A DNA stretch of 64,000 bases from Bdellovibrionota bacterium (GCA_963668355.1 OY764265.1:1153317-1217316), one strand, 5' to 3'. Counted from the first letter of the stretch, positions 707 through 62,534 are shown. The notes: generated by a model not told the origin, from the sequence alone. A program made the numbers and translations.

Positions 707-923
707 ACTCCATTGCTTCTTGTGGATAAATATGATTCTTATTCTCAGCTTCTGGGGAAACCACAGTTATGAATATTCAAGAAGTCCATAGGGTGTCCAT
801 TTCATACACAGGCCAAAATTTTTCTCGTCGGCCTGGAAAGGCTTTTTCCCGAGTTTTCTGCAGTTATCCCCAGGACATACTGCTACTATCTTTTATATAT
901 ACTTATATTTACTTATTTAACGG
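707..923. promoter_or_regulatory. Candidate oriC segment / dnaN upstream region with DnaA-box-like 9-mers and an AT-rich element
   Basis: TTATCCACA (perfect, minus strand) at 721-729; TCATACACA at 802-810; TTATCCCCA at 864-872; AT-rich run cttttatatatacttatatttacttatttaa at about 890-920. Confidence 0.4.
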
Positions 924-2057: not shown

Positions 2058-2101
2058 GGATTCGATCCTCCTTCATGTTGAAGGAATGAGAAGAGATTTC
2101 T

Positions 2102-3199: not shown

Positions 3200-3230
3200 T
3201 AAATCTCGCCTTCCTTTTTTGGAGTATTAG

Positions 3231-5681
<2,451 letters not shown>

Positions 5682-5691
5682 GAGGGGCGAA

Positions 5692-29488: not shown

Positions 29489-29518
29489 AAAGAGCATAAA
29501 TATTAGGTTGTTGTAAAA

Positions 29519-35925: not shown

Positions 35926-35957
35926 ATCCGAAGAAAAAGAAAAACAAAGGAAATGAA

Positions 35958-38383: not shown

Positions 38384-40149
38384 AGTCCTTCAAATTAACA
38401 CCGAGCCTTGCATTATTCTATGCGGTCATCGGTTCGTACTTCGGCCTCTTTTTGGTCTGGCCGGTGTTAAGCATGACGGCGAATGCGTTTTTTTTGGAGG
38501 GAGAATTTTCTCTAACCTTTTTAATGTCGATTTTTAATGATCCCGCTCTTTCCATGACCATCCTTCGCTCTCTGTGGATTGGTTTTGCGGTCACGTTTGC
38601 CACGCTTTTAATCTCCCTGCCCTTGGCCTATGCCTGCTCTCGCCTCTCGTTTAAGGGAAAAGCGTTTTTGCAGGCCCTCACACTTGTTCCCCTTATTTTA
38701 CCTCCCTTTGTGGGCGCGCTGGGCATGCGTCAGTTTTTTGCCCGCTTTGGAAGTGTGAACCTTCTCCTCATGCAAATGGGAATCATTGATCAACCCATCG
38801 ACTGGTTTGGAGATATGGGGTTTTGGGGTGTGGTGTTCTTGGAAGCCATTCATTTGTATCCCATCATGTTTTTGAATTTGACCAGCGCGTTGGCCAATAT
38901 TGATCCGGCCATGGAAGAAGCGGCACAGAGCCAAGGGGCGGGTCCGTGGAAAATTTTCCGAAGTATTACATTTCCACTCACGTTACCCGGCTTTTTTGCC
39001 GGAGCCTCGATTGTGTTCATTTGGGCGTTCACCGACTTGGGGACACCGCTCATGATGGGGTATCGCCAAGTTGCACCCGTACAAATTTTTCAGAAAATCA
39101 CGGAGATCGAAAATAATCCTCAGGGGTATGCACTGGTCTTGGTGGTGTTGGTGGTCACGGCCTTGACCTTTGTTCTTAGTGGAAAGCTAGTTCAGAAAAA
39201 TGAATACGCCATGATTTCCAAAGGAGGGGCGGGAACACGAGCCCGAAACGTCGGATGGTTTGGTCATATTGGGTTGTATGCACTCTTCCTGGGCGTCTTT
39301 TTCATGTCGGTTCTTCCCCACATCGGCGTCATTTTAAACTCTGTGCGAGATTCTTGGTTCATGACCATTTTGCCGGAGAGCTATACGATGGGCCATTGGG
39401 AAAAAATCCTCTCCCATAACATCACGCTTCCCAGCATCATGAATTCCATCAAGTACAGCTTCTTCTCCACCATTTTGGATGTGGTTTTAGGCGTGTGGTT
39501 GGCCTATATGATCGTTAGGAAAAAAGTATGGGGTTCAAAAATCTTAGATGCCATGGCCATGTTGCCCTTGGCGCTTCCAGGAATTGTTCTGGCTTTTGGA
39601 TTCCTTGGATGCTTCATCGGATGGGATGCCCCGGCCAATGCCTTTCTCTCCTTTGTTTTGGCTCCGTTTTATGGAGGAAGGGAACAAGTCCCTTATTTTG
39701 TGATTTTTGATCCGAAAGTGAACCCCATGGTTCTTCTCATCATCGCGTATTCCGTTAGACGCATTCCCTTCATTGTTCGTTCGGCCGCTGCAGGATTTCA
39801 ACAGGTCAGTCATACGTTTGAAGAAGCCTCGGCCAGTTTGGGAGCCAACCCAGCGTACACCGTCCGAAAAATCACGATTCCTTTGATCAGCTCCAACTTG
39901 GTGGCTGGCGTTTTGCTGACGTTCATTTTTGCCATGTTGGAAGTGTCCGACAGTTTGATTCTGGCGTTTCGAGAAGAAACCTATCCCATTACCAAAGCCA
40001 TTTATTCTTTGGCCATGCGATTGGGTGACGGACCCTTTGTGGCTTCGGCGCTGGGTGTGTGGGGCATGCTCCTTCTCACCTGTGGTTTGTTGATCTCGTC
40101 CATTTCCATGGGATCCAAACTCGGCCAGCTCTTTCGCGCGTCTGGGTAG
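38380..40149 (+). CDS. ABC transporter permease, duplicated (two fused transmembrane domains, FbpB/SfuB-like)
   Basis: 589-aa polytopic membrane protein with two permease repeats. Confidence 0.8.
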   Translation: MKSFKLTPSLALFYAVIGSYFGLFLVWPVLSMTANAFFLEGEFSLTFLMSIFNDPALSMTILRSLWIGFAVTFATLLISLPLAYACSRLSFKGKAFLQALTLVPLILPPFVGALGMRQFFARFGSVNLLLMQMGIIDQPIDWFGDMGFWGVVFLEAIHLYPIMFLNLTSALANIDPAMEEAAQSQGAGPWKIFRSITFPLTLPGFFAGASIVFIWAFTDLGTPLMMGYRQVAPVQIFQKITEIENNPQGYALVLVVLVVTALTFVLSGKLVQKNEYAMISKGGAGTRARNVGWFGHIGLYALFLGVFFMSVLPHIGVILNSVRDSWFMTILPESYTMGHWEKILSHNITLPSIMNSIKYSFFSTILDVVLGVWLAYMIVRKKVWGSKILDAMAMLPLALPGIVLAFGFLGCFIGWDAPANAFLSFVLAPFYGGREQVPYFVIFDPKVNPMVLLIIAYSVRRIPFIVRSAAAGFQQVSHTFEEASASLGANPAYTVRKITIPLISSNLVAGVLLTFIFAMLEVSDSLILAFREETYPITKAIYSLAMRLGDGPFVASALGVWGMLLLTCGLLISSISMGSKLGQLFRASG

Positions 40150-40287: not shown

Positions 40288-43200
40288 TTGGCGGGGAAGT
40301 TTCGTATGAAGACCAGAGATCTGTTGACCAAGGTGTTGTTTTCTTTCCTTTTTGGGCTTTTGGCTTTTTCAGGACAAAGCTTTGCCCAACCGGTATGGCC
40401 ACATTATTTTCAAAATCTTCACCCGAAGGTTTCCTCCACCGAAACCCAATATCTTCTGAGAGAGTTTGCCGATGAATGTGCGGCCCTGGACGTTCTCGGC
40501 TCTCAGCGCTACATCAGTTGGCAAAATCGCGGGACCTCAAGAAAAGATCGAGCGTTGGAGGAAGAATTCGATCAAGCTTTTGAAGAGCTCAAACAATTGA
40601 GTTTTGACATCGTTGATCGCCTGGAGCCCTCCGAACTTTTTCTTTTGCTTCAACAATTTCCGTCTCTGGCCTCGCGCTTGGGAATTCCACAATACGCACA
40701 CAATTTGGTTTCGATGGTCAGCATCGGGAGACCCAAGTTCGGAATTGGCGAACTGGAAAAATTCGTTCGCCATCGCACGCTCGTGCGCTTTCTGGAATTT
40801 TCGGAGGAGGAAGATCCCGAATTTGTCGCGTGGCTCTTAGAGATGTTGATCAAGGCGGAGGCCCATTGGGAGTTGTATGGGAATCTTCTAGCGCGAATGG
40901 ATGCTCTTGAAAGTCAGCGGCAGTACTTGGGCTATACGAACGATGAAAAAATAGACGAATTGAGAAGACACACCGAGTTTTATCAAAAGGCAAAGCCTCA
41001 ATTGGCTAGAGAAATTTTGGAATTGAAAAGGGCGACCGATCATCCCCGTTATGAAGCGTGGTTGAATTTGGCGCAAACCTATTTAGATGAATCTCCGGAC
41101 CTTCCGCAAAACATCGGTGAAGGTTTTGGTCTCCCTTTCTATTATGGTTTTCGTTCGGGCTTAGACAGTCTGGCCAGCGTCTTCCATCGTTTTGTTCTGA
41201 AAGATCCAAAGAAAGCCAGTGAAGCGACACATAATGCCGTCAAGTGGCACGAGCGCGCGTTTGCCAGCTCTCATTATTCTGGACTTCGTATGGACCGGCT
41301 TTTAAAGGGCGCAACCTTCCGTCCCGAAAACAGCCCCACTTTAGTTGGCGCAGGGGCCTCTGAAACTTTTTTGGGCGTTTTTGCTTGGCTGGGAACCGCA
41401 AGCGGTCACATCATGGAAGGGGATATCGGACAAGGGGCCAAGGTTCTTTTCATTGATTTTGCCGATGGGCTGTTTTCGTTGGCGGCGGCGCGCGACGACT
41501 TTGTCGAAGACTGGGCCGAGGTCGCTCAAATGCGATTGCAGGCGCAACTCATTGAGGATGAAACGATTCGTCAAGAAAAGATCATTCAAGCCGGCCAAAT
41601 GGCCTTGGCCAATCGACAAAACGGATATTTCAATCCCCATTATTCCGCGCCTTATGCCATCGGTGCGGTGATGGGAGCCAAAAAGGCATTTCGTTTGATG
41701 GTGGTTCCAATTCGATATCTTCGCTCTTTAAATCCTCGGATTCAGGAAGCCCAAGCCCGAGCAGGGCTGGAAACTTCTTCACGAGGAGGTCAGGGTTTTG
41801 AATGGAAACCCTTAGACGAACAGTCTCGAATACAAGTAGAAAGCCTCATTGAAAGTCTCCGAAAATCTGAAAATGCGGAATTGCAGGCCTTGATCCAAAA
41901 TGTGGAAAAAGGCGAACCTCCAGCCGGTCTATTTCCGGATGAAGGCGGAAGCGCAGCTCCTTCTCTTTCGCCACGCCGAGGAAGTGGCGGAGGTGGACCC
42001 GCAACGCTCGTCGAGTCTCGTCCCACGACGGGCTCACAAACTTCCACATCAACCTCTGTGGGTCAAAGCGCACGCACCCTTCAGCCATCACAGCCCTCTC
42101 CCTCCCAAGGGCCGGTCGCCCAGATTCAAACTCCGACGCAAATCGCTCAAGGTCTCGTCGTCGGAAATGTTGAACTCTTACATGCGAATGAAAATGAAGG
42201 TGAGGAAACCAGCGGGGAGGAAAGCTCATCGGAATTCATTGAACGTTTAACGCGCGAAGTTCGTGAATTACAGAAGCGATTGTTCGATTTCATTCCAGCT
42301 CTGGCTGAAACATTCGGCAGCTTTGAAAACTGGGTTCTGAAAGGCATGCCCCTACCTAGAGAAAGCGAGTTGCATGTTCGAGAAATTCGTCGCTCGATTC
42401 AATTGCCACCTCCTTCTCCCGAGACTATTCCCGATCAACTCATCTTCAACTCGCCAGAATATTTTCGTTGGCTTTTTACAGCCGTCGAAGCCTTAGACAA
42501 AGCCGAGCAAGAAGCTCTAACCGACGCGCTTCAAGGGCTAAACCTCATGACGGAGAGGGGCGGAGATGTCGCGTCCGACGCCACGCGCTTAAGTCAAATT
42601 TTTCAGGGTGTTTCAACCCTCAACTTAAGCGACTTTGATGGAACTCGTTCGCGCCTAGAAGATTTGGGAGAAGCGCGCAATACAGAAGTCGATCAACGCG
42701 CGGAAGAACTCCATGAACTGGAAGCCAACTTGGGCCTACATACGGTAAAAGTTTCGGGAAGACCGCTGGTTTGGCCGGAAATAGGATTGCTTGGTAGTTC
42801 TCAGGCCTCTCCACCACTCGCCATTGGAGAAGCCGGAGCGGCCATGGCTATTGATGGTGTGCCCTCGGAAGAATATCAAGGCTTCATTGATCAGCGTTCA
42901 GGTTTCAATCGTAGTGAACTCGATTTACAAATTCGCATTTTACTCTCGGCCATGGTGTTGCACGGCGAGTTTTTGGAAGCCTGGCGGCCTCAAGCTCAAA
43001 ACGGAGTGACACACAAAATTGCCTATGACGTTAAGCTCAAAGATGACAGCGACGGCGAAACGATTTTAAAACTTCAATTATGGCTTCAGGAAGTCGTAGG
43101 TGAGCGTGCCAAAGTTGTGCAAAGCCATTTCATTGAAGCTGAAAATGTAGGCCATAAAAATGTTTATCGCATTGACATCGTTCCGGGGGATAAAGCCGAC

Positions 43201-52583: not shown

Positions 52584-53087
52584 CTATTGAGAGCGGGTTG
52601 AAAAGGTAATCGTGCGGCAGGGAGCCGTGTTTTTCGAAGAGGCTCTCGTTAGAATGCGGCCCGAAAGACTTCCATCTTCATTGAGGCGAATCCATAAATC
52701 CTGGCAGACGGTTGAGCCCTTGTTGATGTGGCAAGGGATTTGTTGCCATTGGTTTGGTGTTAGTGTGGTTTCCAGAACGCTTGGTTCCAGGAGGGCCTCT
52801 CCAAGGAGTTTTCCGCCGTTGTCATGGGTGCGAACTGTCAGGTGAAGGCCATTATCCAGATCAGCAAGGATAAACTCCAGCAAACCCTCGTGGTGCACAA
52901 CCTGTCCCCCCGCTTTCCAATCGTCTCCTGGGGCGTATAGCTGCGTGGTTTCGCACCTTCCTGCGATGCCGTGTTGCATGCCCTCAAGGCTAAGGAGGGC
53001 TTCTTCGATGGTTAGATCTTCAGCAATAGCGAGCCTTGGGATTAAAAGTCCTATGCTTACCACCACACCCAGAAAGAATTTGTTCAT
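52584..53087 (-). CDS. Small exported hypothetical protein
   Basis: 167 aa with signal peptide FLGVVVSIGLLIPRLAIA; upstream of the SSF transporter on the same strand. Confidence 0.45.
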   Translation of the reverse strand: MNKFFLGVVVSIGLLIPRLAIAEDLTIEEALLSLEGMQHGIAGRCETTQLYAPGDDWKAGGQVVHHEGLLEFILADLDNGLHLTVRTHDNGGKLLGEALLEPSVLETTLTPNQWQQIPCHINKGSTVCQDLWIRLNEDGSLSGRILTRASSKNTAPCRTITFSTRSQ

Positions 53088-53375
53088 TGCCCTGTCCTTT
53101 AAAAATTAATGCTTCGCGTCAGGCTGGACTTTATACCTCATCTGGAGCCTCGAAAGAAAGGTTCAAGGGGAGATTTTTTGAAAAAAATTTTGGGCCACCG
53201 TGTAGAAATTTCGAAAAATTCGTAAACTTTAGTTGTCGTTTAAGATATTAAAATAAAAAGATAAATTTGGTTATTGCTTTAAAAACGTGTTTTTTGTTAC
53301 ACTAAAGCTGCACCCCCGAAGGTTGCTCCAGGAGGCGGGACCCAGATTTTCTGGGTTTGGAGTGTCATCGGGTTT

Positions 53376-53412
53376 GGGGTGGGCTCCCTCCCGGGCCCAC
53401 CCCCTTTTTTTT
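53376..53412 (+). terminator. Strong Rho-independent terminator on the plus strand with no plus-strand CDS upstream
   Basis: GC stem GGGGTGGGC(TC) / (GG)GCCCACCCC with short loop followed by T8 (53405-53412). Confidence 0.55.
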
Positions 53413-53613: not shown

Positions 53614-55050
53614 CTAAAAACGTAAGCTTGTTGTCAAAAAGATTTCGTGGAGTTGGATTTTTGCGTCTAGGTCGTTGGTTTCGGTTTCTTGGCGAAACGC
53701 ATACTGAAGGGCGCAAGAGAGGTTTCGGATCGGGTAGTAAAACGCATGGGCTCGGAGCGACCACTCTTTCTCCGTGGTTCGAGGTGCGGATGTAGGAGAA
53801 AGGTCTTGCCAGGCGTCACGCTCATTGCCTTCGAGGGTTCCTCCCATCTCCAGGCGAAACTCCCCATCTCGGAAATTTCTTCCCATCAAAAGATCTATGC
53901 CCGTGTTGAATCCACGATAATTGTCGATGAGGTCCGCTTGAATTCGTAGATCAAAATCGGAATCAAAGAGTTGGGGGTCACGATAGCCTACGGTGTATTT
54001 GATTTGGTTTTGGTCATCAAAGGTGCGTTTCATGTATTGGATGGCGCCAAAGACATAATTGCGATCAAAAATCCGAAACATGATCTGATCTCGAACACCA
54101 TAGTAGTACGCGTCAGTGACTTGAGCCCCTCCCAATAACGTGGAGTTAAAGAGGGGATCGCTGGAAGGAAGAATGGTCGAGAGATTTGAGGCATCAAACT
54201 GAAGAACGCGCCACAAGTTGAGGGAAAGCGTGTTGGTGAAGCTGGGTTGAGGTCGGGTAATCACCGATAATTGACCCAGTCGAAAGGCTGCGACTCCAGC
54301 AACATCTGCTTCCACCAAGCCAGAAAGACTCCATCGCGCATTGAAGTCGTAGGTACCTTGAGCAAATGCGGTCATGCGATCCAAACTCTTCTTGAACCAT
54401 TGGGCGTGAAGCGCGACATCTCCTCGAAAAGCGTTTCCTCGATACGAAGCATACACACCTGAAGTGAGGTAATCCAAAGAGAAGGGCTCACTCCGATACG
54501 CGCTTCCCAAGTAGCCAACTTGATTTCTCAAGTCATTGGCGAATCCGCCGAATAAACCAAGGCTCACACGATTGGAAGAGTGATAGACCAAACGAAGGCC
54601 ATCTACGCGAGCCCCTCCGGCTTCATACATGCGTTGGCGTCCCACCCATAAATCCAGTGATTTTGCGATGGAGGGAAGCTCCAAGCTGGCTTCGTAAAGT
54701 TGGTGCCGCCCCGCATTCGAAAATGAAAAGGTGGAATTTTTTTCTCCAATATTGAAATAGCTTCGTCCTTTGAAATGAAAAGTGCCGTCCTGTGAAGCAT
54801 TTTCACCAAAGAGTTTGGAAATTTTGGTTCGAAGGCCCAGCGAGAAAAGGCTGTACTGATCTTGAATATAATTGTTTCCGTAAAGATCGTCGGCCTGGAA
54901 GTTGGCTTGGCTCGAGACATTGTTTCGTAGATGCCAAAAACCCATATCCACATTGCCTTTGAATTCGGCCGCGTGAAGAGGAGCATGCGCGGCAAAAAGG
55001 AGCGCCCCTCCCAACAGGCCCAGAGCTCGAAGGGTTCCCCGTTTCTTCAT
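53614..55050 (-). CDS. Outer-membrane beta-barrel protein (porin-like), third gene of cytochrome operon
   Basis: Signal peptide LRALGLLGGALLFAAHAPLHA; alternating amphipathic beta-strand pattern; C-terminal ...TSLRF aromatic terminus; ATGA start/stop overlap with the cytochrome gene. Confidence 0.7.
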   Translation of the reverse strand: MKKRGTLRALGLLGGALLFAAHAPLHAAEFKGNVDMGFWHLRNNVSSQANFQADDLYGNNYIQDQYSLFSLGLRTKISKLFGENASQDGTFHFKGRSYFNIGEKNSTFSFSNAGRHQLYEASLELPSIAKSLDLWVGRQRMYEAGGARVDGLRLVYHSSNRVSLGLFGGFANDLRNQVGYLGSAYRSEPFSLDYLTSGVYASYRGNAFRGDVALHAQWFKKSLDRMTAFAQGTYDFNARWSLSGLVEADVAGVAAFRLGQLSVITRPQPSFTNTLSLNLWRVLQFDASNLSTILPSSDPLFNSTLLGGAQVTDAYYYGVRDQIMFRIFDRNYVFGAIQYMKRTFDDQNQIKYTVGYRDPQLFDSDFDLRIQADLIDNYRGFNTGIDLLMGRNFRDGEFRLEMGGTLEGNERDAWQDLSPTSAPRTTEKEWSLRAHAFYYPIRNLSCALQYAFRQETETNDLDAKIQLHEIFLTTSLRF

Positions 55051-57128
55051 GGTTTTGCCGGCCTCCATCCAAATGTGAAGTGGCAGGTTTCACAGGTGAT
55101 GGGTGCGCCCACATGACCGGTGATCGTGGCATCGAAGTCCTTGGCATGACAGAAGTGACAATCTTGCGGTAAGCCGCCAAAAATTCGATTGGCATGACAT
55201 TGGTTGCAATCCAAGAAGCGGTGGGCTCCCGAGAGGTCAAAGCCCGTTTGGGAGTGTCGGAAGGTGGTGGGGAGCCAAGCTTGTTGGTTGTGACATTGCC
55301 AACACGTTCGCCCAAAGGAATTCATATGGGGGTCGAGATGGCAAGCCGCGCAGTCCGTTCGGGAGGTGCGAACGTTTTCCGTGGCATTGTGGCAGGCCGT
55401 GCAATCCATTTGATCATGAACTCCACCCAACGAAAATTCGCCAAAATCATGAAAGCCTCCTTTTCGAACGGAGAAGCCTTCAAAGACATGACAACGCTCA
55501 CAATTGGTTCCAAACGTTCCATCATGAACATCCCGGTGACAAGACGAGCATTCGCTGGATTCAAACTTGTATTGATAATCTTTATGGCATTGATTGCAGG
55601 CCAGCTTTCGATGTTGTCCTCTTAAGTTAAACCTGGAACCTCGCTCATGATCGAATTCGATGTCGTTGAAGGCAATGGGCGCATGGCATCGCATGCATTC
55701 AATTCCAAGTTCTCCCTTGTGGAAGTCCGTGTGGCAATTTTGGCAAAGGGTGTCGATGCCGGCATAGCGGCCATTCGAGTGACAATCCGCACAGGGTACG
55801 TTTTGGTGTTTTCCAACCAACGGAAAACGGGATTGCCGATTGTGGTCGAAGGTCAGGTTTTTAAATGCAGAGAACGTATGACAGGATGCACAGGTTTTCT
55901 TTCCAAATTGTCCTTTATGTACATCGATGTGACAGTAGGAGCAGTCCGGATTTTGATTAAGCCAGCGATACTTGGCGTCTGCATGACATTGGCCACAGGG
56001 AACGACCTTATGTTTTCCTTCGAGTTTGAACCGCGCATCTTTTTCATGGTTGAACTTCAAGAACTTCCAGCCGTCTTCAATATGGCAGCTCTTGCAAGTT
56101 TTCTTTTCGGTCCAGAGAATTTCGAATTGATTTCCATGGGGGTTATTGTGACAGCCGCTGCATTGAGAAAAGTTTTTCATTTTTCCAATGACAGGGCCGT
56201 GACACCTCACGCACGTCACATAGTTATGTTCGCCTCGTAAAGGAAAGGCAGTTTTACTGTGGTCAAACTCACCCTTTCCTTTAGGGGTGATCGCTCGCCA
56301 AGAACGCGTGTGATGACATTTCTTGCAATCTTTTCCCAGCTTTCCCTTGTGGGGATCTACGTGGCAATTGCTACATCGTTTGAACGGGGTGGGTTTCCAG
56401 AGTTTGTTTTTGTGACACGCGTAACAATCGACCGGTTTATGTTTCCCGGTGAGAGGATATTTCGTGTCTCTATCGTGATCAAACGGGAGCCGGGCTAAAA
56501 TGGGGGACCATTTCGAAGTGTTGTGACATTTTTCACATAAGGTGAACGATTGGGTTTTGGACTTATGAATGTCCTCGTGACAAGACGCACATTTAGAGGG
56601 GGTGTTGATGTAAGTTCGTGTGTTGGTTTTACGGCCGGTTTTTACATGGCGGCGTTTGGCTTTGTGGCAGTCCTCACATTGCGCAGTGACGTGTGCACCA
56701 TCCAACGGCCAGTCGGTTTCGTCGTGATGAAAGGAAAGGCGCGTTAAACCCATCAAATCATAATCCAAGCCTTTGTGATCACTGTGGCATTCGATGCAGG
56801 TTCCTTCAACACGCGCATGGTATCCCTTGTCCTTGGAAACCAGAGAGGCGATTTCGGTATGGCAGTCGAGGCATTTTTGGTCAGGGACACCTTTTGCGGT
56901 GGCGTGGCAATCGGTACACTTGCTCAAGCCTTCCAGCTCTTGGTGGGCTTTGGCCAAAGGACCGGGATTTAGAAGCCCTCCGAAGTCAAGCTGGGCCCTT
57001 GCCGGTGACGCTGTCGCCAGAAATCCAAAAATGGCCGCAATGATTATGTGTCCCCGAAATCTCAAAAACATCCCCAAGTGAACTAAAACGATACCCGGAA
57101 TCGTCCAATTGGCGAAATTTTCAATCAC
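55047..57128 (-). CDS. Multiheme cytochrome c with 27 CxxCH motifs (about nine triheme c7-like repeats)
   Basis: 27 CxxCH motifs counted in the translation; signal peptide MFLRFRGHIIIAAIFGFLATASPARA (alternative start near 57071); recurrent FDH / GxH distal-His spacing. Confidence 0.9.
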   Translation of the reverse strand: MIENFANWTIPGIVLVHLGMFLRFRGHIIIAAIFGFLATASPARAQLDFGGLLNPGPLAKAHQELEGLSKCTDCHATAKGVPDQKCLDCHTEIASLVSKDKGYHARVEGTCIECHSDHKGLDYDLMGLTRLSFHHDETDWPLDGAHVTAQCEDCHKAKRRHVKTGRKTNTRTYINTPSKCASCHEDIHKSKTQSFTLCEKCHNTSKWSPILARLPFDHDRDTKYPLTGKHKPVDCYACHKNKLWKPTPFKRCSNCHVDPHKGKLGKDCKKCHHTRSWRAITPKGKGEFDHSKTAFPLRGEHNYVTCVRCHGPVIGKMKNFSQCSGCHNNPHGNQFEILWTEKKTCKSCHIEDGWKFLKFNHEKDARFKLEGKHKVVPCGQCHADAKYRWLNQNPDCSYCHIDVHKGQFGKKTCASCHTFSAFKNLTFDHNRQSRFPLVGKHQNVPCADCHSNGRYAGIDTLCQNCHTDFHKGELGIECMRCHAPIAFNDIEFDHERGSRFNLRGQHRKLACNQCHKDYQYKFESSECSSCHRDVHDGTFGTNCERCHVFEGFSVRKGGFHDFGEFSLGGVHDQMDCTACHNATENVRTSRTDCAACHLDPHMNSFGRTCWQCHNQQAWLPTTFRHSQTGFDLSGAHRFLDCNQCHANRIFGGLPQDCHFCHAKDFDATITGHVGAPITCETCHFTFGWRPAKP

Positions 57129-57156
57129 AAAAGAAGAAAAGAAATCTTTAGTGAAA

Positions 57157-59127
57157 TCACCAGTTTGTGAAAAGAATGAGGTTCTTCAAAATGTGACCGA
57201 CGGCGATCATCATCATGATCCAAGCGAAGGGTCGATGAACCGTTCGCCAAAGGGCAAAAAGTCTGGACGTTACATTTAATAGAGCCGCGTTTCGTTGCAG
57301 GCGGATTTGGCTTTTCAGCAAATCCAGGAAGACGTGAACTTGGCGACCTTGAATTTTGATTTCTGAAGGAAGGCGAAGTCGGTAGGTCCACAGCATGACC
57401 CATGTACGGATGACCGAACGAATCAAAGACCAAAAGGTTGGATTCAGGCGCGCATCTTCGGTGGCCGTTTGAACAATCTTTTTCACAAAAGCCTTTTGCG
57501 CATCGGACTGACCCAAAAGGGCGCCTAATTTTTGCGTCAGAGCTTCATCTTCTTCTTCAATGTCCCGCATGCGCAGTTCAGTCCCTGCAACCCCACGCGG
57601 TATGATTTGATAGAGGAACCGTCCGAACAGTCCACTTAAAACCACCAGTCCCAAGGCCACGATCCCGAAAGAACTGGGCTGGAAGGGAAAGACAAAAGCC
57701 GTGTGAAAGAGGATCAAAACCGATCCAAAAAATCCGCAGAAATTGTGAAAATCCAACCAGGCGGGTTCTCGGCCCAAATACTTAAAGAGGCGTGGAAACT
57801 GTTTCCGCAAGGGGTAGGCTAAGCTTCCCATGATCAGAAGAAAGCCCAAGTTTCCATAGAAGTTACAAAGTTTGGAGCCTCGAGAAAATTCCAAAACCGC
57901 ATCTGAGGGGAGCCAGCCCCAGGCCTTCATGAGAAGAAGCAACGAGACGTCCGGGGATTTGGTGAGGGCAAAGGCTTCCCACGCCAGAAAGAGCGTTCCC
58001 ACAAAGGCTAAGAAAACATATGTTTTTTGCAGAGCCAAATCGAACCAATTCCTCTGCAAAAGACTGTCCATGGGTTTCTGAACGCCTTTCCCGGCTCCCA
58101 GAATTCGGGGATCTTCCAGAAGTTCCGAAGCTTCTACCTCCAGAATCGCACCCGTGGGGCAATTGGCGACGCAGGCAAGATCATCAAACCCATCACAGTG
58201 ATTGCATTTGTCCGCGATGAACTTGGGTTTGACCTTTTTATGGGGATCGAGGAAACGAGAAAACACAGGAAGTGTGGGCTCAACCTTGTGCATGAGGATG
58301 GCTCCATACTGACAAGCCGTGGCACAGGCCGAGCAGCCGATGCAATTGTCCAAAATTTCCACCTCACCCGTTTGTCGGTTGAACACCACAGAATCCACAG
58401 GGCAAGAGGGGATGCACGCGGGGTAGAAGCAAGTCAGGCAGCTTTTGGCAAAGTCCAGAACGCCAAACCGGGCATACCCCCGTTCAATTCGTTGAAACCC
58501 GTGCCGTTCTTCACAGGAGGTGTAGCAAATATTGCATTCGATGCATTTGTCCATTTGGGTGATTTTCACGCGAGAGCCTTGCGTGAGTTCGGTTTGGATC
58601 AAGAATTCAAGCGCGGACCGAGAATGTTTATCCTCACTGAACGTCCGGTTTCGATAGTCGACGCGATCGGCAAGTTTTTTTAAGTCATCCTTAAAGCCGG
58701 GTTGAATCTCGGCCAAGCGCTGAAGGTCTTGTCGGGAAACGACCAAGAGTTCTACCGCCGTGATGGCAGTGGCCTTCGTGGCCACTTGTCCCCGCCAGGA
58801 GAACGCCTTATCTACAAAAAAATCGCCTTTTCGGAGAAAATTGAGCGGTTTTTGACGTGCCTCCTCGTCAAATCCTGAGATTTGCAGTTGTCCTTGCAGA
58901 AGGAAAAAGAAGTATGAGAAAACAGCCTCTCGTTTGGGAAGTTCCAGAACGGTCTCTCGGGCGGGATAGCTGCATCGATACACGCGGCCATCCAGGTGGC
59001 GCAATGAAGCCCCTGGGACTTTGCGAAACAAGCGCAAGCGTTTCAAGTCCTCTGAGGTGGCCAGAGGAAAAGAAAGGGGCTTGGATGCCTGTTGCGAAGT
59101 TGGTTTTAAGGGCATACGTTTTCCCAT
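57157..59127 (-). CDS. Membrane-bound iron-sulfur protein: cNMP-binding-like N-terminus, two 2x[4Fe-4S] ferredoxin domains, C-terminal polytopic membrane domain
   Basis: Cys clusters CIECNICYTSC, CLTCFYPACIPSCP, CIGCSACATAC, CNHCDGFDDLACVANCP; N-terminal Crp-like beta-roll pattern; four to five hydrophobic helices at C-terminus. Confidence 0.8.
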   Translation of the reverse strand: MGKRMPLKPTSQQASKPLSFPLATSEDLKRLRLFRKVPGASLRHLDGRVYRCSYPARETVLELPKREAVFSYFFFLLQGQLQISGFDEEARQKPLNFLRKGDFFVDKAFSWRGQVATKATAITAVELLVVSRQDLQRLAEIQPGFKDDLKKLADRVDYRNRTFSEDKHSRSALEFLIQTELTQGSRVKITQMDKCIECNICYTSCEERHGFQRIERGYARFGVLDFAKSCLTCFYPACIPSCPVDSVVFNRQTGEVEILDNCIGCSACATACQYGAILMHKVEPTLPVFSRFLDPHKKVKPKFIADKCNHCDGFDDLACVANCPTGAILEVEASELLEDPRILGAGKGVQKPMDSLLQRNWFDLALQKTYVFLAFVGTLFLAWEAFALTKSPDVSLLLLMKAWGWLPSDAVLEFSRGSKLCNFYGNLGFLLIMGSLAYPLRKQFPRLFKYLGREPAWLDFHNFCGFFGSVLILFHTAFVFPFQPSSFGIVALGLVVLSGLFGRFLYQIIPRGVAGTELRMRDIEEEDEALTQKLGALLGQSDAQKAFVKKIVQTATEDARLNPTFWSLIRSVIRTWVMLWTYRLRLPSEIKIQGRQVHVFLDLLKSQIRLQRNAALLNVTSRLFALWRTVHRPFAWIMMMIAVGHILKNLILFTNW

Positions 59128-59243
59128 TATAGGGAATGCTTGAGAAACTTGACAGAGGATTGATCCGATTTCATCTTTGATTTCAGCATGATTGGCGATG
59201 AGCCAAAAAGGAATGGAACGAAAGGGTTAAAGCAGGTGAGAAA

Positions 59244-59966
59244 ATGATCGAAGTAAATCAGCTAACCAAAAAGTATGGAGAAATTCATGCCGTAGATGGC
59301 GTCTCGTTCAAAGTTGATGACGGAGAAATTCTTGGTTTTTTAGGACCAAACGGAGCTGGCAAGACCACCACCATGCGCATTTTAACGGGGTTCATTCCTC
59401 CCTCATCGGGAACGGCGGTTGTGGCGGGCCACGACATCCAAGTCGAACCCCTGGAGGTCAAAAAACGAATCGGCTATTTGCCGGAAACCCCTCCGCTTTA
59501 CACCGACTTAAGCGTGTCGGCCTATTTGAATTTTGTGGCCAAAATCAAACAGATTCCTTCCGAAAAGAGAGCTGAGCGCTTGGACTGGGTATTGGAACAA
59601 TGTGGGTTGAAAGATGTGCACAAGCGCGTCATCCAAAATCTTTCGAAAGGATATCGCCAGCGCGTGGGTTTGGCACAAGCCATCATTCATGAACCAGAGG
59701 TCTTGATTTTGGATGAGCCGACGGTCGGGTTGGATCCGGCTCAAATCCGGGAAATTCGAGAGCTGATCAGAAAGTTGTCGGAAAACCACACCATTATTTT
59801 ATCCACACATATTCTTCCAGAAGTGACGCTGATCTGTAATCGGGCTGTGATCATCAATCGCGGAAAAATTGTGTTGGAAGGCACCGTATCTGAGCTTACG
59901 GCGGAGAAAAATTTGGAAGAGGTTTTCGTCGACCTGGTTTCAAAAGGCGAAACAACCGAAGCTTAG
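59244..59966 (+). CDS. ABC transporter ATP-binding protein (ABC-2 / GldA-like)
   Basis: Walker A GPNGAGKTT, signature LSKGYRQRVGLA, Walker B ILDEPT. Confidence 0.9.
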   Translation: MIEVNQLTKKYGEIHAVDGVSFKVDDGEILGFLGPNGAGKTTTMRILTGFIPPSSGTAVVAGHDIQVEPLEVKKRIGYLPETPPLYTDLSVSAYLNFVAKIKQIPSEKRAERLDWVLEQCGLKDVHKRVIQNLSKGYRQRVGLAQAIIHEPEVLILDEPTVGLDPAQIREIRELIRKLSENHTIILSTHILPEVTLICNRAVIINRGKIVLEGTVSELTAEKNLEEVFVDLVSKGETTEA

Positions 59967-59983
59967 GCTAGAAGGAGAAGGAC

Positions 59984-60769
59984 ATGTCAACGACTTGGGC
60001 CATCATTCAGAAAGAAATTAAACATTATTTCGTATCTCCCATCGCCTACGTGGTGATGATGATTTATCTCACGCTGTCGGGGTATTTCTTTTTCGTGGGG
60101 CTGAATCGATTCAGTCATGTGTATAGCGAGGCCAAAAATTCCATGCGGTTTTATCAAAATCCGCAGATCCTGGAACACATCAACCTGAATGAGATTGTGA
60201 TTGCACCGGCCTTGTTCAATATGATTTTTGTGTTTCTCTTCCTGTTGCCCTTGATCATGATGCGATCCTTTGCCGAAGAGAAAAGGGCTCGTACAGATGA
60301 ACTTTTAATGACATCCCCCATCACGACGGGACAACTCGTCATGGGTAAATTCATCGGCTCCATACTTTTCATTCTGGTTTTGATTCTGCCCACGCTGATC
60401 TATCAAGGATTTCTTTTTTATTATGCTTCCCCCGAGTGGGGGCCCGTGTTTACGGGGTATGTCGGCGTAATTTTATTTGCGATGGCAGGTGTTTCCATCG
60501 GTCTGTTTGCCTCCTCGTTGACTGAAAATCAAATCATCGCAGCGGTCATTACCTTCGTGATTTTGCTATTCATGTTCATCATCAATTTTATTGGGCAAGC
60601 CGAGGGGACCTTTTTGTACGACATTGTTCGGTACCTTGCAGTAGCCGAGCATATTCAAAACTTACTCATGGGTGTGATCGACACAAAAGATCTAGCGTAT
60701 TTTTTAAGCATCATTCTTTTGTTTTTGTTCATGACCAAACGATCTGTGGAATCGTTCCGTTGGAGATAG
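59984..60769 (+). CDS. ABC-2 family permease (GldF-like)
   Basis: 261-aa six-TM protein directly downstream of the ATPase. Confidence 0.8.
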   Translation: MSTTWAIIQKEIKHYFVSPIAYVVMMIYLTLSGYFFFVGLNRFSHVYSEAKNSMRFYQNPQILEHINLNEIVIAPALFNMIFVFLFLLPLIMMRSFAEEKRARTDELLMTSPITTGQLVMGKFIGSILFILVLILPTLIYQGFLFYYASPEWGPVFTGYVGVILFAMAGVSIGLFASSLTENQIIAAVITFVILLFMFIINFIGQAEGTFLYDIVRYLAVAEHIQNLLMGVIDTKDLAYFLSIILLFLFMTKRSVESFRWR

Positions 60770-60776
60770 GAGGACG

Positions 60777-62534
60777 ATGATGAACGTATTATTTCAATGT
60801 TTGGGAATTACTGGATTAATCATGCTGCTCTATGGCCTTTTGGCCTTTGCAGTGACTCCCGTTGCTTCCGTTTTCTTTTGGGTTTTGGTGATTTTGGGAA
60901 CGCTCTTGATCTTAACCTTTGTCATCAAGTCTTTGTCTCGGCGTTGGCAGTTGGTCACGGCGTCCTTTGTGGGCCTAAATGGCATTTGGATTTTTCTTTC
61001 TTTTGGAGAGAAGTTGGGCTTCTGGGATGAGTTAGACTGGCGCTATCTTTTAATTGGGGCGTTTGTTCTCAATGTCATTTTTGTGGTTGCGGCCAGAAAG
61101 TTTTTGAAAGACCTGTTTGAAAAACGAGCCGTTCAACATGGTGCCAATGCCATTGTGTATTCCTTGATCTTTTTGGCCACTCTGGTGGTTTTAAATATTT
61201 TTGCCGTCGACGTGAATCGCAAATGGGATTTTACCGAAAGCTCCATCAATACGCTGAGCCAGCAATCTGTTGACCTTCTCAATCGTCTGGATGCTCCTTT
61301 GAACATCTATGTATTCGTAGATGATCAATATCCGGACAAACCACGCCTGAAAAAATTGCTCGGAATGTATGAATTTGAATCCGATAAAGTGAACGTTGAG
61401 TTTTTGGACCCGGATCGAGAACGTCATCTGGCCGAAAAATACAAGGTGCAGAATGGCCAACTCGTTGTGGAGTATAAAAATCAGTCGCACATCACCCAAG
61501 GAACCAACGAAGAAGGGATTACGCAGGCCATTTTGAAAGTGGCTGACAAAAGAGATGCGACGATCTGCTTCGTTCAGGGTCACGGAGAGTTGGGCATCGA
61601 TAGCGAAAATGATGATCCACGAAGCCTCTCCGCCGTCAACGGAGGTCTTGAAAACGAGGGATATACCACCAAAGTCGTCAACAATATTACGGGGGGTATT
61701 CCTCAAGATTGTTCGATTCTGACGATTGCCGGCCCCACCCAAATGTATACGCCGGATGAAGTGAAGTCGGTGGAGAACTTTTTGGCCGGGGGAGGAAAGG
61801 CCATGATCCTTTTGGATCCAAACATCCCCAATCCAAAATTGAATCCAAAAACCTTCCATATTTTGCCGACGGGATTGGAACAAACGCTCAAGAAATGGGG
61901 CGTGTTGGTTGGGCAAAACTTCATTCTGGAAAAACATTTGGAGCTTTTGCGTGGAATGACGGTGGGTCTGACCGTTATGGCACGGAACTATGGAAATCAC
62001 CCCATTGTCGATCCTTTAAAAGGACGACAAACGGTGTTCCAAAATGTTCAATCCATCCAAAAGAACAAAGATTTTTCCGGAACCGCGCTTGAAATCATTT
62101 CAAGTGCAAAGGGAGATTTGAGCTGGGCGGAACAAAACATTGACCGTCTTTTAAAAGAAGGCGCGGCAGAACCGAATGCTGGAGAGCTGAAAGGGCCTGT
62201 GCCGTTTGCTGTTGCGGTTGAAAAGGATATGAAAGGGAAAGATGAATTGGATGAAAGGCAAACGCGCATTCTCGTCATCGGCGATGCGGATTTCGCCTCC
62301 AATGGAATGGTGACCTCTTATGAGTTCAATTTTGACCTTTTCTTAAATGGTTACAATTGGCTTTCCGGACAGAAAGAAAGCATCACCATTCGTCCAAAGC
62401 GTCTTCGGGCTTCAGCCATCGAACTAACTCCGGAACAATCTCTTCGGATTTTTCACATTGCGATTGTTGGCATCCCCATGCTGGTTCTCATCTTTGGCAT
62501 GAACCTTTGGTGGTGGCGCAGACGAAAGGGGTAG
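60777..62534 (+). CDS. GldG-like ABC-transport auxiliary protein
   Basis: 585 aa with N- and C-terminal membrane anchors and large extracytoplasmic domain; gene order ATPase-permease-GldG. Confidence 0.7.
   Translation: MMNVLFQCLGITGLIMLLYGLLAFAVTPVASVFFWVLVILGTLLILTFVIKSLSRRWQLVTASFVGLNGIWIFLSFGEKLGFWDELDWRYLLIGAFVLNVIFVVAARKFLKDLFEKRAVQHGANAIVYSLIFLATLVVLNIFAVDVNRKWDFTESSINTLSQQSVDLLNRLDAPLNIYVFVDDQYPDKPRLKKLLGMYEFESDKVNVEFLDPDRERHLAEKYKVQNGQLVVEYKNQSHITQGTNEEGITQAILKVADKRDATICFVQGHGELGIDSENDDPRSLSAVNGGLENEGYTTKVVNNITGGIPQDCSILTIAGPTQMYTPDEVKSVENFLAGGGKAMILLDPNIPNPKLNPKTFHILPTGLEQTLKKWGVLVGQNFILEKHLELLRGMTVGLTVMARNYGNHPIVDPLKGRQTVFQNVQSIQKNKDFSGTALEIISSAKGDLSWAEQNIDRLLKEGAAEPNAGELKGPVPFAVAVEKDMKGKDELDERQTRILVIGDADFASNGMVTSYEFNFDLFLNGYNWLSGQKESITIRPKRLRASAIELTPEQSLRIFHIAIVGIPMLVLIFGMNLWWWRRRKG

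What the first reader, a model, noticed from the sequence alone, without database searches (positions are those of the whole stretch)
53614..59127. Three-gene operon for a membrane Fe-S protein, a 27-heme cytochrome c and a beta-barrel outer-membrane protein: candidate trans-envelope electron conduit
On the minus strand a polytopic membrane protein with four [4Fe-4S] motifs, an exported 27-heme c-type cytochrome and a porin-like beta-barrel are tightly linked (28-nt gap, then ATGA overlap at 55047-55050). This parallels the logic of porin-cytochrome conduits (MtrAB/PioAB/MtoAB and Geobacter Pcc) but with a single very large cytochrome and an unusual Fe-S/cNMP-binding inner-membrane partner instead of a CymA- or NapC-type quinol dehydrogenase. 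I do not recognise this composition as a described module.
Basis: partly seen in the sequence, partly recalled or inferred. Interest (0 to 1): 0.8.

Follow-up and report, generated by a model that had tools for sequence, protein, structure and literature searches.

The report
Three-gene trans-envelope cytochrome wire candidate
A predatory-lineage bacterium (Bdellovibrionota) carries a conserved three-gene set whose proteins could together carry electrons from the cytoplasm to the cell surface; it is an unstudied, compact relative of the predicted PCC3/PCC4 "porin-cytochrome" clusters of iron-oxidising bacteria.

Summary
Three tightly linked minus-strand genes encode the following.

- **A (57157-59127):** a degenerate cNMP-like domain, four [4Fe-4S] motifs (16 invariant Cys) and a five-helix membrane domain.
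- **B (55047-57128):** an exported cytochrome with exactly 27 CXXCH, built from nine triheme c7-like units.
- **C (53614-55050):** a predicted 22-strand, plug-less outer-membrane barrel whose start overlaps B's stop (ATGA).

This is the di-heme-b signature of the conserved inner-membrane protein of the predicted PCC3/PCC4 clusters (He et al. 2017). A aligns to the separate Fe-S protein (7e-25) and membrane protein (2e-9) of a PCC4-like cluster, so it is a fusion of the two.

The A-cytochrome-barrel set recurs in 12 loci (Bdellovibrionota, Myxococcota and others). The heme count is 27 in all five intact Bdellovibrionota copies and 26-30 elsewhere.

Best reading: an envelope-spanning electron conduit running Fe-S chain, two hemes b, a periplasm-long 27-heme wire and the barrel. 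Direction and substrate are unknown, and nothing is experimentally verified, here or for PCC3/PCC4. It is a new variant of a known, predicted-only kind.

The parts
57157..59127 (-). Gene A: inner-membrane Fe-S / di-heme-b protein, 656 aa. The database entry P0003 starts 4 codons later and is 652 aa.
   Evidence: ORF; Pfam. About 44 homologues, mostly labelled Bdellovibrionota, at 47-59% identity. Alignment A4.
58633..59070 (-). A residues ~20-165: CRP-like cNMP-binding fold, degenerate. It reads FFVDK...QVAT where CRP has FIGE...RSA.
   Evidence: Pfam cNMP_binding 9.1e-10. Foldseek top hits are CRP/GlxR. The alignment with E. coli CRP and PCC4-like CNB domains shows that the Gly-Glu and Arg of the phosphate-binding cassette are lost.
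58123..58572 (-). A residues ~186-335: four-cluster ferredoxin domain with 4 x [4Fe-4S] motifs, predicted to be cytoplasmic.
   Evidence: 16 invariant Cys. Sub-threshold NCBIfam hits to DmsB, HydN, NrfC, QrcC and DsrO. Structural hit to HycB 7z0s_B. No signal or Tat motif, and a K/R-rich N-terminus (read directly from the sequence).
57160..58056 (-). A residues ~358-656: five-helix membrane domain carrying W457-x3-H461-x13-H475 on TM3, S498-G-x-x-G502 on TM4 and W627-x3-H631-x13-H645 on TM5. Predicted to bind two bis-His hemes b.
   Evidence: Helices in the AF2 model. His and Gly are invariant and Trp is >=90% conserved in 18 sequences. Sub-threshold Ferric_reduct hits in 14/18 members and DUF4405 hits in 13/18. 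The motifs are identical to the PCC3/PCC4 inner-membrane protein signature.
55047..57128 (-). Gene B: exported 27-heme cytochrome c. Alternative start at Met20 = 57071. The predicted mature protein starts at Q46 = 56993.
   Evidence: 27 CXXCH. Nine triheme units with three conserved extra His each, so all hemes can be bis-His. Pfam Cytochrome_C7. Weak PDB profile hits to HmcA 1z1n, the nine-heme 1ofw and GSU1996 3ov0.
53614..55050 (-). Gene C: outer-membrane 22-strand beta-barrel, 478 aa from M7. The ORF extends to 55068.
55047..55050 (-). ATGA overlap of B's stop and C's start (translational coupling).
   Evidence: Sequence. The same 4-nt overlap occurs in L004, L005, L006, L088 and L091.
59126..59155 (-). 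Sigma-70-like promoter match (CTGTCA-18-TATAAT) immediately upstream of A.
   Evidence: This is a consensus match only and is not enriched over shuffles.
53376..53403 (.). GC-rich 11-bp hairpin about 210 nt downstream of C. It has an A-run on the operon strand and a T-run on the plus strand, and marks the end of the unit.

Best explanation
The three genes encode a dedicated electron conduit that spans the whole cell envelope.

1. In the cytoplasm, A's chain of four [4Fe-4S] clusters exchanges electrons with an unidentified soluble partner.
2. The chain hands electrons to two bis-His hemes b stacked across the inner membrane in A's ferric-reductase-like five-helix domain. This would be an electrogenic step that need not involve quinone.
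3. On the periplasmic face the electrons enter B, a rod of nine triheme c7-like units carrying 27 bis-His hemes. B would be roughly 25-30 nm long if it is as extended as the 12-heme, 12-nm GSU1996 (own knowledge). That is long enough to cross the periplasm.
4. B's far end is held in or against the 22-strand plug-less barrel C. This gives electrons access to the cell surface, or to acceptors or donors that enter the barrel.

Shown here: the cofactor motifs and their invariance, the barrel model, the gene coupling, the conserved co-occurrence of the three genes, and homology of A to the Fe-S and membrane proteins of a PCC4-like cluster.

Inferred: cofactor loading, topology, physical contacts between A and B and between B and C, and the direction of flow. 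I lean about 60:40 towards outward flow, that is, disposal of cytoplasmic reducing power to extracellular Fe(III), Mn(IV), humics or similar. The reason is that every centre is of a low-potential type (ferredoxin-like clusters, bis-His hemes). Inward flow, as proposed for PCC3/PCC4 in iron oxidisers, is not excluded.
For: Cofactor motifs:
- 16 Cys and 4 His are invariant across 18 A homologues down to 24% identity.
- A carries W-x3-H-x13-H twice plus SGxxG, which is the PCC3/PCC4 inner-membrane protein signature.
- 14/18 family members give sub-threshold Ferric_reduct hits and 13/18 give DUF4405 hits.

Homology to a PCC4-like cluster:
- A residues 73-331 align to the Fe-S protein of L021 at 7e-25.
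- A residues 417-510 align to L021's separate membrane protein at 2e-9.

The cytochrome:
- 27 CXXCH in nine regular triheme units with three spare conserved His per unit.
- About 24 residues per heme. He et al. link a low residue-to-heme ratio to wire-like cytochromes.
- The heme number is 27 in 5/5 intact Bdellovibrionota orthologues at 50-57% identity, and 26-30 in distant ones. This suggests a length constraint.
- The literature already proposes that 21-27-heme periplasmic cytochromes span the periplasm.

The barrel:
- 22 strands, no plug, signal peptide and terminal Phe.

Linkage:
- The B-C ATGA overlap recurs in at least five other loci.
- The A-cytochrome-barrel set is present in every locus with enough flank. 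These were reached both from A homologues and from distant barrel homologues, and include loci with entirely different flanks: L005, L009, L010, L090 and the P0045 contig.
Against: - There is no experimental datum for this cluster or for PCC3/PCC4, which were still described as 'functionally unverified' in 2025.
- No cytochrome-in-barrel model could be computed.
- There is no extracellular cytochrome in the window, so contact with solid minerals is not obvious.
- No cytoplasmic donor domain is present. The Pyr_redox domain of PCC4-like relatives is absent.
- In four relatives A is separated from the cytochrome-barrel pair by two opposite-strand genes, so strict co-transcription is not conserved.
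- The A model has only moderate confidence (pLDDT 72.8, pTM 0.45).
- Outward electron flow from the cytoplasm would dissipate rather than build membrane potential, so the physiological benefit is unclear.
Confidence: 0.6

Rival explanations
1. A and B form a Tmc/Hmc-style transmembrane redox complex: a periplasmic multiheme cytochrome, a membrane cytochrome b and a cytoplasmic Fe-S module. It would link periplasmic redox reactions or an electron-storing 'capacitor' cytochrome to cytoplasmic metabolism. Under this reading the barrel only lets a soluble substrate in, or helps assembly, and conducts no electrons.
For: The best solved-structure and NCBIfam similarities of B are to 16-heme HmcA (1z1n, 3.1e-5; NF045713, 1.9e-4). 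The A architecture, Fe-S plus heme b, parallels TmcBC/HmcEF (own knowledge). The barrel has no detectable relation to MtrB. The window has no extracellular cytochrome.
Against: The barrel gene is translationally coupled to the cytochrome gene and co-occurs with it in all 12 loci, including loci reached from distant barrel homologues. The barrel family is tiny and was found only in this context. A plain substrate porin would not be expected to stay so strictly linked. The conserved 26-30 heme count fits a spanning distance better than a storage role.
Confidence: 0.2
2. C is a dedicated export or anchoring channel, and B is displayed outside the cell as a long monomeric 'nanowire'. A would then feed it through some other periplasmic carrier.
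For: Long 27-heme monomeric wires predicted to be extracellular are reported in Desulfuromonadia. The most conserved barrel residues lie at the predicted extracellular rim, while the periplasmic turns are least conserved. Locus L009 has a second 27-heme paralogue after the barrel gene, resembling a periplasmic plus extracellular pair.
Against: B has a plain Sec signal peptide and no lipobox or known secretion signal. No other periplasmic cytochrome is encoded in the cluster, apart from a 6-heme extra gene in L004 only. The strictly conserved heme number is easier to explain by the fixed width of the periplasm.
Confidence: 0.12
3. The three genes are merely neighbours with unrelated functions.
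For: None beyond the absence of experimental data.
Against: The three genes co-occur in 12 loci across at least two phyla with unrelated flanks. The 4-nt overlap is retained.
Confidence: 0.02

Closest known systems
PCC4 putative porin-cytochrome cluster, subgroup II (He et al. 2017, PMC5566968); PCC4-like examples seen here are L021 and L043
   Same: A porin gene sits next to periplasmic multiheme cytochrome genes and there is no extracellular cytochrome. The inner-membrane protein has five TM helices, SGxxG on TM4 and W-x3-H-x13-H on TM3 and TM5. An Fe-S protein is encoded directly upstream of it, and the two were annotated as a single gene in Oceanospirillum beijerinckii. Window A is sequence-homologous to both parts (7e-25 and 2e-9).
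   Different: PCC4 has three cytochromes of 4, 5 and 10 hemes rather than one of 27. In the PCC4-like loci L021 and L043 the Fe-S protein also carries an N-terminal Pyr_redox (FAD/NAD(P)H) domain and canonical cNMP domains. Here the Fe-S and membrane parts are fused, there is no FAD domain and the cNMP domain is degenerate. The putative porins of L021 and L043 were not matched by the barrel profile. The hosts are Proteobacteria and Planctomycetes, not Bdellovibrionota or Myxococcota.
PCC3 putative porin-cytochrome cluster of Sideroxydans, Leptothrix and others (He et al. 2017; Hoover et al. 2023)
   Same: It has a very long periplasmic cytochrome (21-27 hemes, low residue-to-heme ratio, repetitive) proposed to span the periplasm. 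It also has a porin and an inner-membrane protein with the same di-heme-b motif signature.
   Different: PCC3 has a second, extracellular cytochrome of 10-35 or more hemes. Its inner-membrane protein is about 300 aa with no Fe-S or cNMP domain. Sequence homology of the PCC3 proteins to B and C was not testable here.
MtrAB / MtoAB / PioAB porin-cytochrome complex
   Same: The general logic is the same: a periplasmic multiheme cytochrome gene is coupled to an outer-membrane barrel gene, and in the solved Mtr complex (6R2Q) the cytochrome is sheathed by the barrel.
Geobacter c7-polymer 'heme nanowire' cytochromes: GSU1996 and GSU0592 (12 hemes) and GSU2210 (27 hemes)
   Same: They are built from tandem triheme c7-type units. 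GSU2210 also has 27 hemes. B matches Pfam Cytochrome_C7 and gives a weak profile hit to GSU1996 (3ov0, 1.8e-3).
   Different: The sequence relationship is only remote, and no NCBIfam model other than a weak HmcA hit matched B. Here all hemes appear to be bis-His. The Geobacter proteins are regarded as free periplasmic proteins and are not reported to have a coupled barrel and Fe-S/heme-b partner (own knowledge; the GSU2210 gene context was not checked).
Tmc/Hmc transmembrane redox complexes of sulfate reducers, and the NOX/STEAP/MsrQ ferric-reductase-domain proteins
   Same: A cytoplasmic redox module is coupled to two transmembrane hemes b and on to a periplasmic or external acceptor. Tmc and Hmc use a multiheme c3-type cytochrome as the periplasmic partner (own knowledge).
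   Different: These are different protein families. Tmc and Hmc use NarI/HdrE-type cytochrome b and CCG-type Fe-S proteins. NOX and STEAP use FAD/NADPH domains and six TM helices. None has an outer-membrane barrel.

Membership tests
PCC3/PCC4 inner-membrane protein (He et al. 2017) | Five transmembrane helices | tested here: met
   The AF2 model has helices at 361-390, 419-443, 454-476, 484-508 and 617-652. The K/R-rich 444-453 loop and the 509-616 region fit an N-in topology.
PCC3/PCC4 inner-membrane protein (He et al. 2017) | W-x3-H-x13-H on TM3 and again on TM5 | tested here: met
   W457/H461/H475 and W627/H631/H645. The His are invariant and the Trp >=90% conserved in 18 sequences.
PCC3/PCC4 inner-membrane protein (He et al. 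2017) | SGxxG on TM4 | tested here: met
   S498-G499-L-F-G502. Both Gly are invariant, and Ser is replaced by Thr in two sequences.
PCC4 subgroup II cluster | An Fe-S (pfam13247-type) protein encoded directly upstream of the inner-membrane protein | tested here: met
   Present as a fusion. Fer4_11 and other Fer4 hits. BLASTP of A against the L021 Fe-S protein gives 7e-25, and against the L021 membrane protein 2e-9.
PCC4 cluster | Three periplasmic cytochromes with 4, 5 and 10 hemes | tested here: not met
   The cluster has a single 27-heme cytochrome, and no other CXXCH-rich ORF exists anywhere in the window.
PCC3 cluster | An extracellular multiheme cytochrome in addition to the periplasmic one | tested here: not met
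   The window, L001, L005, L006, L088 and L090 have only one large cytochrome gene. L009 has two.
PCC3/PCC4 cluster | A beta-barrel porin gene adjacent to the cytochrome gene | tested here: met
   22-strand AF2 barrel with an ATGA overlap to the cytochrome gene. Homology to the PCC3/PCC4 porins themselves was not detected for L021 and L043 and was otherwise not testable.
MtrAB/MtoAB/PioAB | MtrB/PioB-family porin (Pfam MtrB_PioB; 26 strands in 6R2Q) | tested here: not met
MtrAB/MtoAB/PioAB | Decaheme MtrA-family periplasmic cytochrome | tested here: not met
   B has 27 hemes in c7-like triheme units. The only MtrC/MtrF-related match is a sub-threshold domain hit at 0.008.
TonB-dependent or other plugged transporter | N-terminal plug domain inside a 22-strand barrel | tested here: not met
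   The strands begin at residue 29, directly after the signal peptide. There are no Plug or TonB_dep_Rec Pfam hits.
Ferric reductase domain superfamily (Pfam PF01794) | Profile match above the curated threshold | tested here: inconclusive
   The window protein scores 15.1 bits against a cutoff of 28. 14 of 18 family members give sub-threshold hits (best 1.2e-4), and DUF4405 hits occur in 13/18 (best 8.5e-6). The His spacing matches. No PDB sequence relative was found.
Cyclic-nucleotide-binding domain (functional cNMP sensor) | Phosphate-binding cassette with the conserved Gly-Glu and Arg-Ser/Thr (CRP G71/E72, R82/S83) | tested here: not met
   The fold matches, but the cassette reads F-V-D-K ... 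Q-V-A-T throughout the Bdellovibrionota family. PCC4-like relatives keep F-G-E ... R-x-A. Ligand binding itself is not testable here.
Geobacter c7-polymer cytochromes (GSU1996 type) | Tandem triheme c7-type domains | tested here: inconclusive
   Nine regular triheme units and a Pfam Cytochrome_C7 match at 8.6e-31. The profile hit to 3ov0 is only 1.8e-3, and no NCBIfam model other than a weak HmcA hit matched B.

The most novel reading that the evidence does not exclude
This may be a minimal, quinone-independent 'hard-wired' conduit made of three polypeptides and 33 redox centres (4 Fe-S, 2 heme b, 27 heme c). It would connect cytoplasmic metabolism directly to the cell surface. The strictly conserved 27-heme cytochrome would act as a molecular ruler spanning the periplasm. 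The module is confined to uncultured Bdellovibrionota and Myxococcota, lineages known for predation rather than metal respiration, so they may exchange electrons with minerals, humics or even prey cells.
Probability: 0.3. Interest if true: 0.85.

Novelty: new variant of a known kind. Interest (0 to 1): 0.6.

Why it matters
If it works as inferred, the cluster extends extracellular-electron-transfer machinery into Bdellovibrionota and Myxococcota, which no paper in the searched library links to such a module.

It also offers the most compact version yet of the still-untested PCC3/PCC4 idea: three genes with the cytoplasmic Fe-S module and the di-heme-b membrane module already fused. That makes one long-standing open point directly testable, namely how electrons cross the inner membrane in these clusters and whether quinones are bypassed.

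The invariant heme count of 27 gives a concrete handle on the 'periplasm-spanning wire' hypothesis. A three-gene cytoplasm-to-surface wire would also be attractive for engineering electroactive strains.

Tried and rejected
- **Word-indexed protein search for the barrel.** The single-sequence search and the 5-sequence profile search each returned only 2 hits. The exhaustive HMMER search was needed and found 19 representatives.
- **Genome-contig scan with the A alignment.** Only one close Bdellovibrionota-type locus was returned, so it says nothing about taxonomic frequency. It did, by luck, supply the PCC4-like loci L021 and L043 and the Myxococcota loci.
- **Foldseek of the full A model against PDB.** CRP-type cNMP domains dominated the results and no membrane-domain match appeared in the top 50.
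- **Sequence searches against PDB.** A's membrane domain and the barrel profile both found nothing.
- **Rfam.** The gathering scan of the whole window found nothing, and the E-value scan of the 527-nt downstream spacer found nothing meaningful.
- **TonB-dependent receptor or plugged transporter.** Considered and rejected, because there is no plug.
- **MtrB/PioB membership.** Considered and rejected, because there is no sequence signal.
- **Periplasmic, Tat-exported Fe-S domain.** Considered and rejected. There is no signal or Tat motif, the N-terminal cNMP fold is a cytoplasmic type, and the positive-inside pattern fits an N-in topology.
- **The downstream 167-aa secreted protein (52584-53087) as a fourth component.** Considered and rejected. 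It lies beyond a 527-nt gap and a hairpin and is not conserved in other loci.
- **The look-up of encoding contigs with the window's own protein.** It found no record.


Full report
**1. The observation**

The region holds three consecutive minus-strand ORFs: A (57157-59127, 656 aa), B (55047-57128, 693 aa) and C (53614-55068, 484 aa).

B contains exactly 27 CXXCH motifs and no variant motifs. All 54 of its Cys lie in those motifs, and it has 60 His.

A has four ferredoxin-type Cys motifs. It matches Pfam cNMP_binding and many Fer4 families.

C matches nothing in Pfam or NCBIfam.

The A-B gap is 28 nt if B starts at the GTG. Homologue N-termini suggest that Met20 (57071) is the real start. That start gives a classical signal peptide, MFLRFRGHIIIAAIFGFLATASPARA|QLDF, and an 85-nt gap.

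C most likely starts at M7 (55050), which agrees with the 478-aa database entry P0001. This creates the ATGA stop/start overlap with B.

A sigma-70-like match lies just upstream of A. No terminator-like hairpin on the operon strand lies between the genes.

**2. Host and conservation**

The exact proteins occur once each, on a 2.92-Mb contig. The A family has about 44 clusters at 47-59% identity. Where labelled, they are named Bdellovibrionota, Bdellovibrionales or Oligoflexia, and all are metagenome-assembled genomes.

Every A homologue with enough flanking DNA is accompanied by a large c7-type cytochrome and a 440-504-aa protein with no Pfam match:
- L001, L004, L006, L088 and L089, from Bdellovibrionota-type genomes;
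- L005, from a 'Myxococcales' MAG at 28% identity with entirely different flanks;
- the P0045 contig;
- L009, from a 'Proteobacteria' MAG;
- L010, from Kofleriaceae.

Searching from the other side gave the same result. Two distant barrel homologues (P0058 and P0062, E 3e-8 and 2e-4) also sit directly after a cytochrome with 30 and at least 22 hemes. In L090 an A-like protein carrying the same motifs lies upstream.

The cytochrome/barrel 4-nt overlap recurs in L004, L005, L006, L088 and L091.

The divergent gliding-type ABC transporter next to A is conserved only within Bdellovibrionota, so it reflects relatedness rather than function.

In L006, L008, L088 and L089, two small opposite-strand genes separate A from the cytochrome-barrel pair. 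The invariant core is therefore the cytochrome-barrel pair with A nearby. A strict three-gene operon is one arrangement among several, and it is the one seen in this window.

**3. Protein A**

An alignment of 18 homologues down to 24% identity shows 16 invariant Cys in four motifs:
- CX2CX2CX3C,
- CX2CX4CX3C,
- CX2CX2CX3C,
- CX2CX7CX3CP.

This is the pattern of four-cluster ferredoxins. There are sub-threshold NCBIfam hits to DmsB, HydN, NrfC, QrcC and DsrO and a structural hit to HycB.

Four invariant His lie in transmembrane helices, H461/H475 and H631/H645. Each pair is spaced H-x13-H and preceded by W-x3. An S-G-x-x-G motif lies on the helix between them.

The AF2 model (pLDDT 72.8) has five membrane helices. 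There is no signal or Tat motif, the N-terminus is K/R-rich, and the 444-453 loop is positively charged. These features place the cNMP and Fe-S domains in the cytoplasm. They also pair H461 with H631 near the cytoplasmic face and H475 with H645 near the periplasmic face. That is a two-heme-b transmembrane wire.

Pfam gives consistent but sub-threshold support across the family. Ferric_reduct hits occur in 14/18 members and DUF4405 hits in 13/18.

The cNMP-like domain has the CRP fold. However, it has lost the Gly-Glu and Arg of the phosphate-binding cassette, reading FFVDK...QVAT. It is probably not a cyclic-nucleotide sensor (inference).

**4. Protein B**

The 27 hemes fall into nine units of about 66 residues. 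The consensus is F-x-H ... L-x-G-x-H-x4-CxxCH-x~14-CxxCH-x-D-x-H-x-G-x-x-G-x2-3-CxxCH. Each unit therefore supplies three extra His for its three hemes, so all hemes can be bis-His.

There are about 24 residues per heme, which is denser than MtrA.

Sequence relatives with solved structures are only remote: HmcA 1z1n at 3.1e-5, the nine-heme 1ofw, and GSU1996 3ov0 at 1.8e-3.

The heme count is 27 in all five intact Bdellovibrionota orthologues despite only 50-57% identity. It is 26-30 in the distant clusters.

The C-terminal unit is clearly the most conserved. It is 57% invariant, against 30-42% for the other units. This suggests a docking surface at that end.

**5. Protein C**

With a 17-sequence alignment, AF2 gives a confident 22-strand barrel (pLDDT 82.5, pTM 0.75). 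The barrel starts right after the signal peptide and ends in Phe, with no plug.

The family is tiny, with 19 representatives at E<1e-3 among 1.84 billion proteins.

Mapping conservation onto the model places the near-invariant residues (G137-R138, D150-G151, G169, D224-R225, R342, D345) at the ends of strands facing the predicted extracellular rim. The periplasmic turns are the least conserved part. This is unusual for an outer-membrane protein and hints at a functional site at the outer mouth. The inference assumes the canonical topology with both termini in the periplasm.

**6. Relation to what is known**

He et al. 2017 (PMC5566968) predicted two porin-cytochrome cluster types in iron oxidisers.
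- **PCC3:** a porin, an extracellular cytochrome, a 21-27-heme periplasmic cytochrome and a ~300-aa inner-membrane protein.
- **PCC4:** a porin, cytochromes of 4, 5 and 10 hemes and an inner-membrane protein. [quoted passage not shown]

The defining signature of that inner-membrane protein is five TM helices, SGxxG on TM4 and W-x3-H-x13-H on TM3 and TM5. The C-terminal domain of A has exactly this signature.

Two loci from my genome scan fit the PCC4 description: L021 (Rhodospirillales MAG) and L043 (Pseudomonadales MAG). They encode 4-, 10- and 5-heme cytochromes and a separate 272-291-aa membrane protein. In L021 that protein has both W-x3-H-x13-H motifs and SGxxG. They also encode an 810-853-aa protein made of Pyr_redox, two cNMP domains and Fer4.

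A aligns to the L021 Fe-S protein over residues 73-331 (7e-25) and to its membrane protein over residues 417-510 (2e-9). So A is a fused, FAD-less version of the PCC4 cytoplasmic and membrane module.

The cytochrome here (one 27-heme c7 polymer) and the barrel (22 strands, no detectable homology to the L021/L043 candidates) differ from PCC4, and so does the host phylum. PCC3 remains 'functionally unverified'.

Literature searches found no description of such a cluster in Bdellovibrionota.

Functionally, the A-B pair also resembles the Tmc/Hmc complexes of sulfate reducers, and A resembles NOX/MsrQ-type ferric-reductase-domain proteins (own knowledge). Family membership is not supported for either.

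**7. Mechanism and verdict**

The best-supported explanation (confidence about 0.6) is an envelope-spanning conduit: a cytoplasmic Fe-S chain, two hemes b, a periplasm-length 27-heme rod and the barrel.

Direction and substrate are open. Low-potential cofactor types make me favour outward electron disposal. The PCC literature favours inward flow from Fe(II).

The main rival (about 0.2) is a Tmc/Hmc-like periplasm-to-cytoplasm redox complex in which the barrel is not conductive.

The finding is real, conserved and interesting. It is a new variant of a predicted kind rather than a categorically new system, and everything functional remains to be shown.

Noticed in passing
window 53285-53412 (+), in the 527-nt spacer downstream of gene C: A structured plus-strand element ends in an 11-bp GC hairpin followed by T8, which is a canonical terminator on the strand opposite the operon, yet no plus-strand gene lies upstream. 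MFE is -54.5 kcal/mol with z = -2.49. There is no Rfam match (best was Xoo2, E 0.92). It could be a small RNA convergent with the operon's end.
   Followed up: partly
L009:9823-16435; L010:1-5073: In Myxococcota-like relatives the module is elaborated. L009 has cytochrome (26 hemes), barrel (624-aa ORF) and a second cytochrome (27 hemes). L010 has a second barrel-like gene (464 aa) upstream of a 28-heme cytochrome and the barrel. These arrangements resemble a periplasmic plus extracellular cytochrome pair.
   Followed up: partly
C-termini of the cytochromes in L005, L009, L010 and L091: The non-Bdellovibrionota cytochromes carry an extra Cys-containing C-terminal tail: GGFPRESICR (twice in L009), ARLGRQSLCR, GSGCGVCEVNGR and VVCGECESSR. 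The Bdellovibrionota proteins lack it and end in FTFGWRPAK. It could be a sorting, lipidation or metal-binding tag.
   Followed up: no
L006:10009-11634, L088:9018-10330, L089:9041-10227, L008:8456-9166: Two small opposite-strand genes encoding secreted proteins with no Pfam match (one is Peptidase_C92 in L089) are inserted between A and the cytochrome gene in several relatives. A is therefore not always co-transcribed with the cytochrome-barrel pair.
   Followed up: partly
L004:10174-10728: One relative has an extra 184-aa, 6-heme c7-type cytochrome gene between A and the 27-heme cytochrome gene.
   Followed up: no
window 59244-62534 (+), and the equivalent positions in L001, L004, L006, L088 and L089: A divergently transcribed ABC system is conserved next to gene A in all Bdellovibrionota loci but not in the Myxococcota loci. 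It comprises an ATPase, an ABC-2 permease and a GldG-like ABC_transp_aux protein, followed in relatives by DUF4340, DUF1844 and ClpB. This is probably lineage synteny rather than a functional link.
   Followed up: partly
window 53617-55050 (-), barrel model: The near-invariant barrel residues cluster at the predicted extracellular rim, while the periplasmic turns are the least conserved part. This is the reverse of the usual pattern in outer-membrane proteins.
   Followed up: partly
window 143-8160 (+): The window opens with what look like the C-terminus of dnaA, then dnaN, recF, gyrB and gyrA, judged from ORF sizes and N-terminal sequences. GC skew is positive in most 2-kb bins and the cumulative skew rises across the window. 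The cluster therefore lies about 50 kb from the probable replication origin.
   Followed up: no
window 13915-15579 (-): A Ser/Thr protein kinase is fused to a C-terminal PilZ (c-di-GMP-binding) domain, an uncommon combination.
   Followed up: no
window 28388-40149 (+): Three signal-peptide proteins (366, 1298 and 837 aa) have no Pfam match. They are followed by an ABC importer: a 351-aa protein that reads like an ATPase (not scanned against Pfam), a SBP_bac_6/SBP_bac_1 binding protein and a double BPD_transp_1 permease. The layout is reminiscent of ferric-iron-type uptake systems.
   Followed up: no
window 40288-46539 (+): A 2083-aa protein whose only recognisable domain is a single glycosyltransferase group 1 domain at residues 1450-1586. 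It is convergent with a 703-aa GT4 protein.
   Followed up: no
L011:2-5456 (Nitrospirae MAG): A 903-aa ORF whose C-terminal part matches the barrel family (1.2e-27) lies upstream of a protein with two cNMP domains and Fer4, with no cytochrome gene in between. The contig is too short to see the rest of the locus.
   Followed up: no
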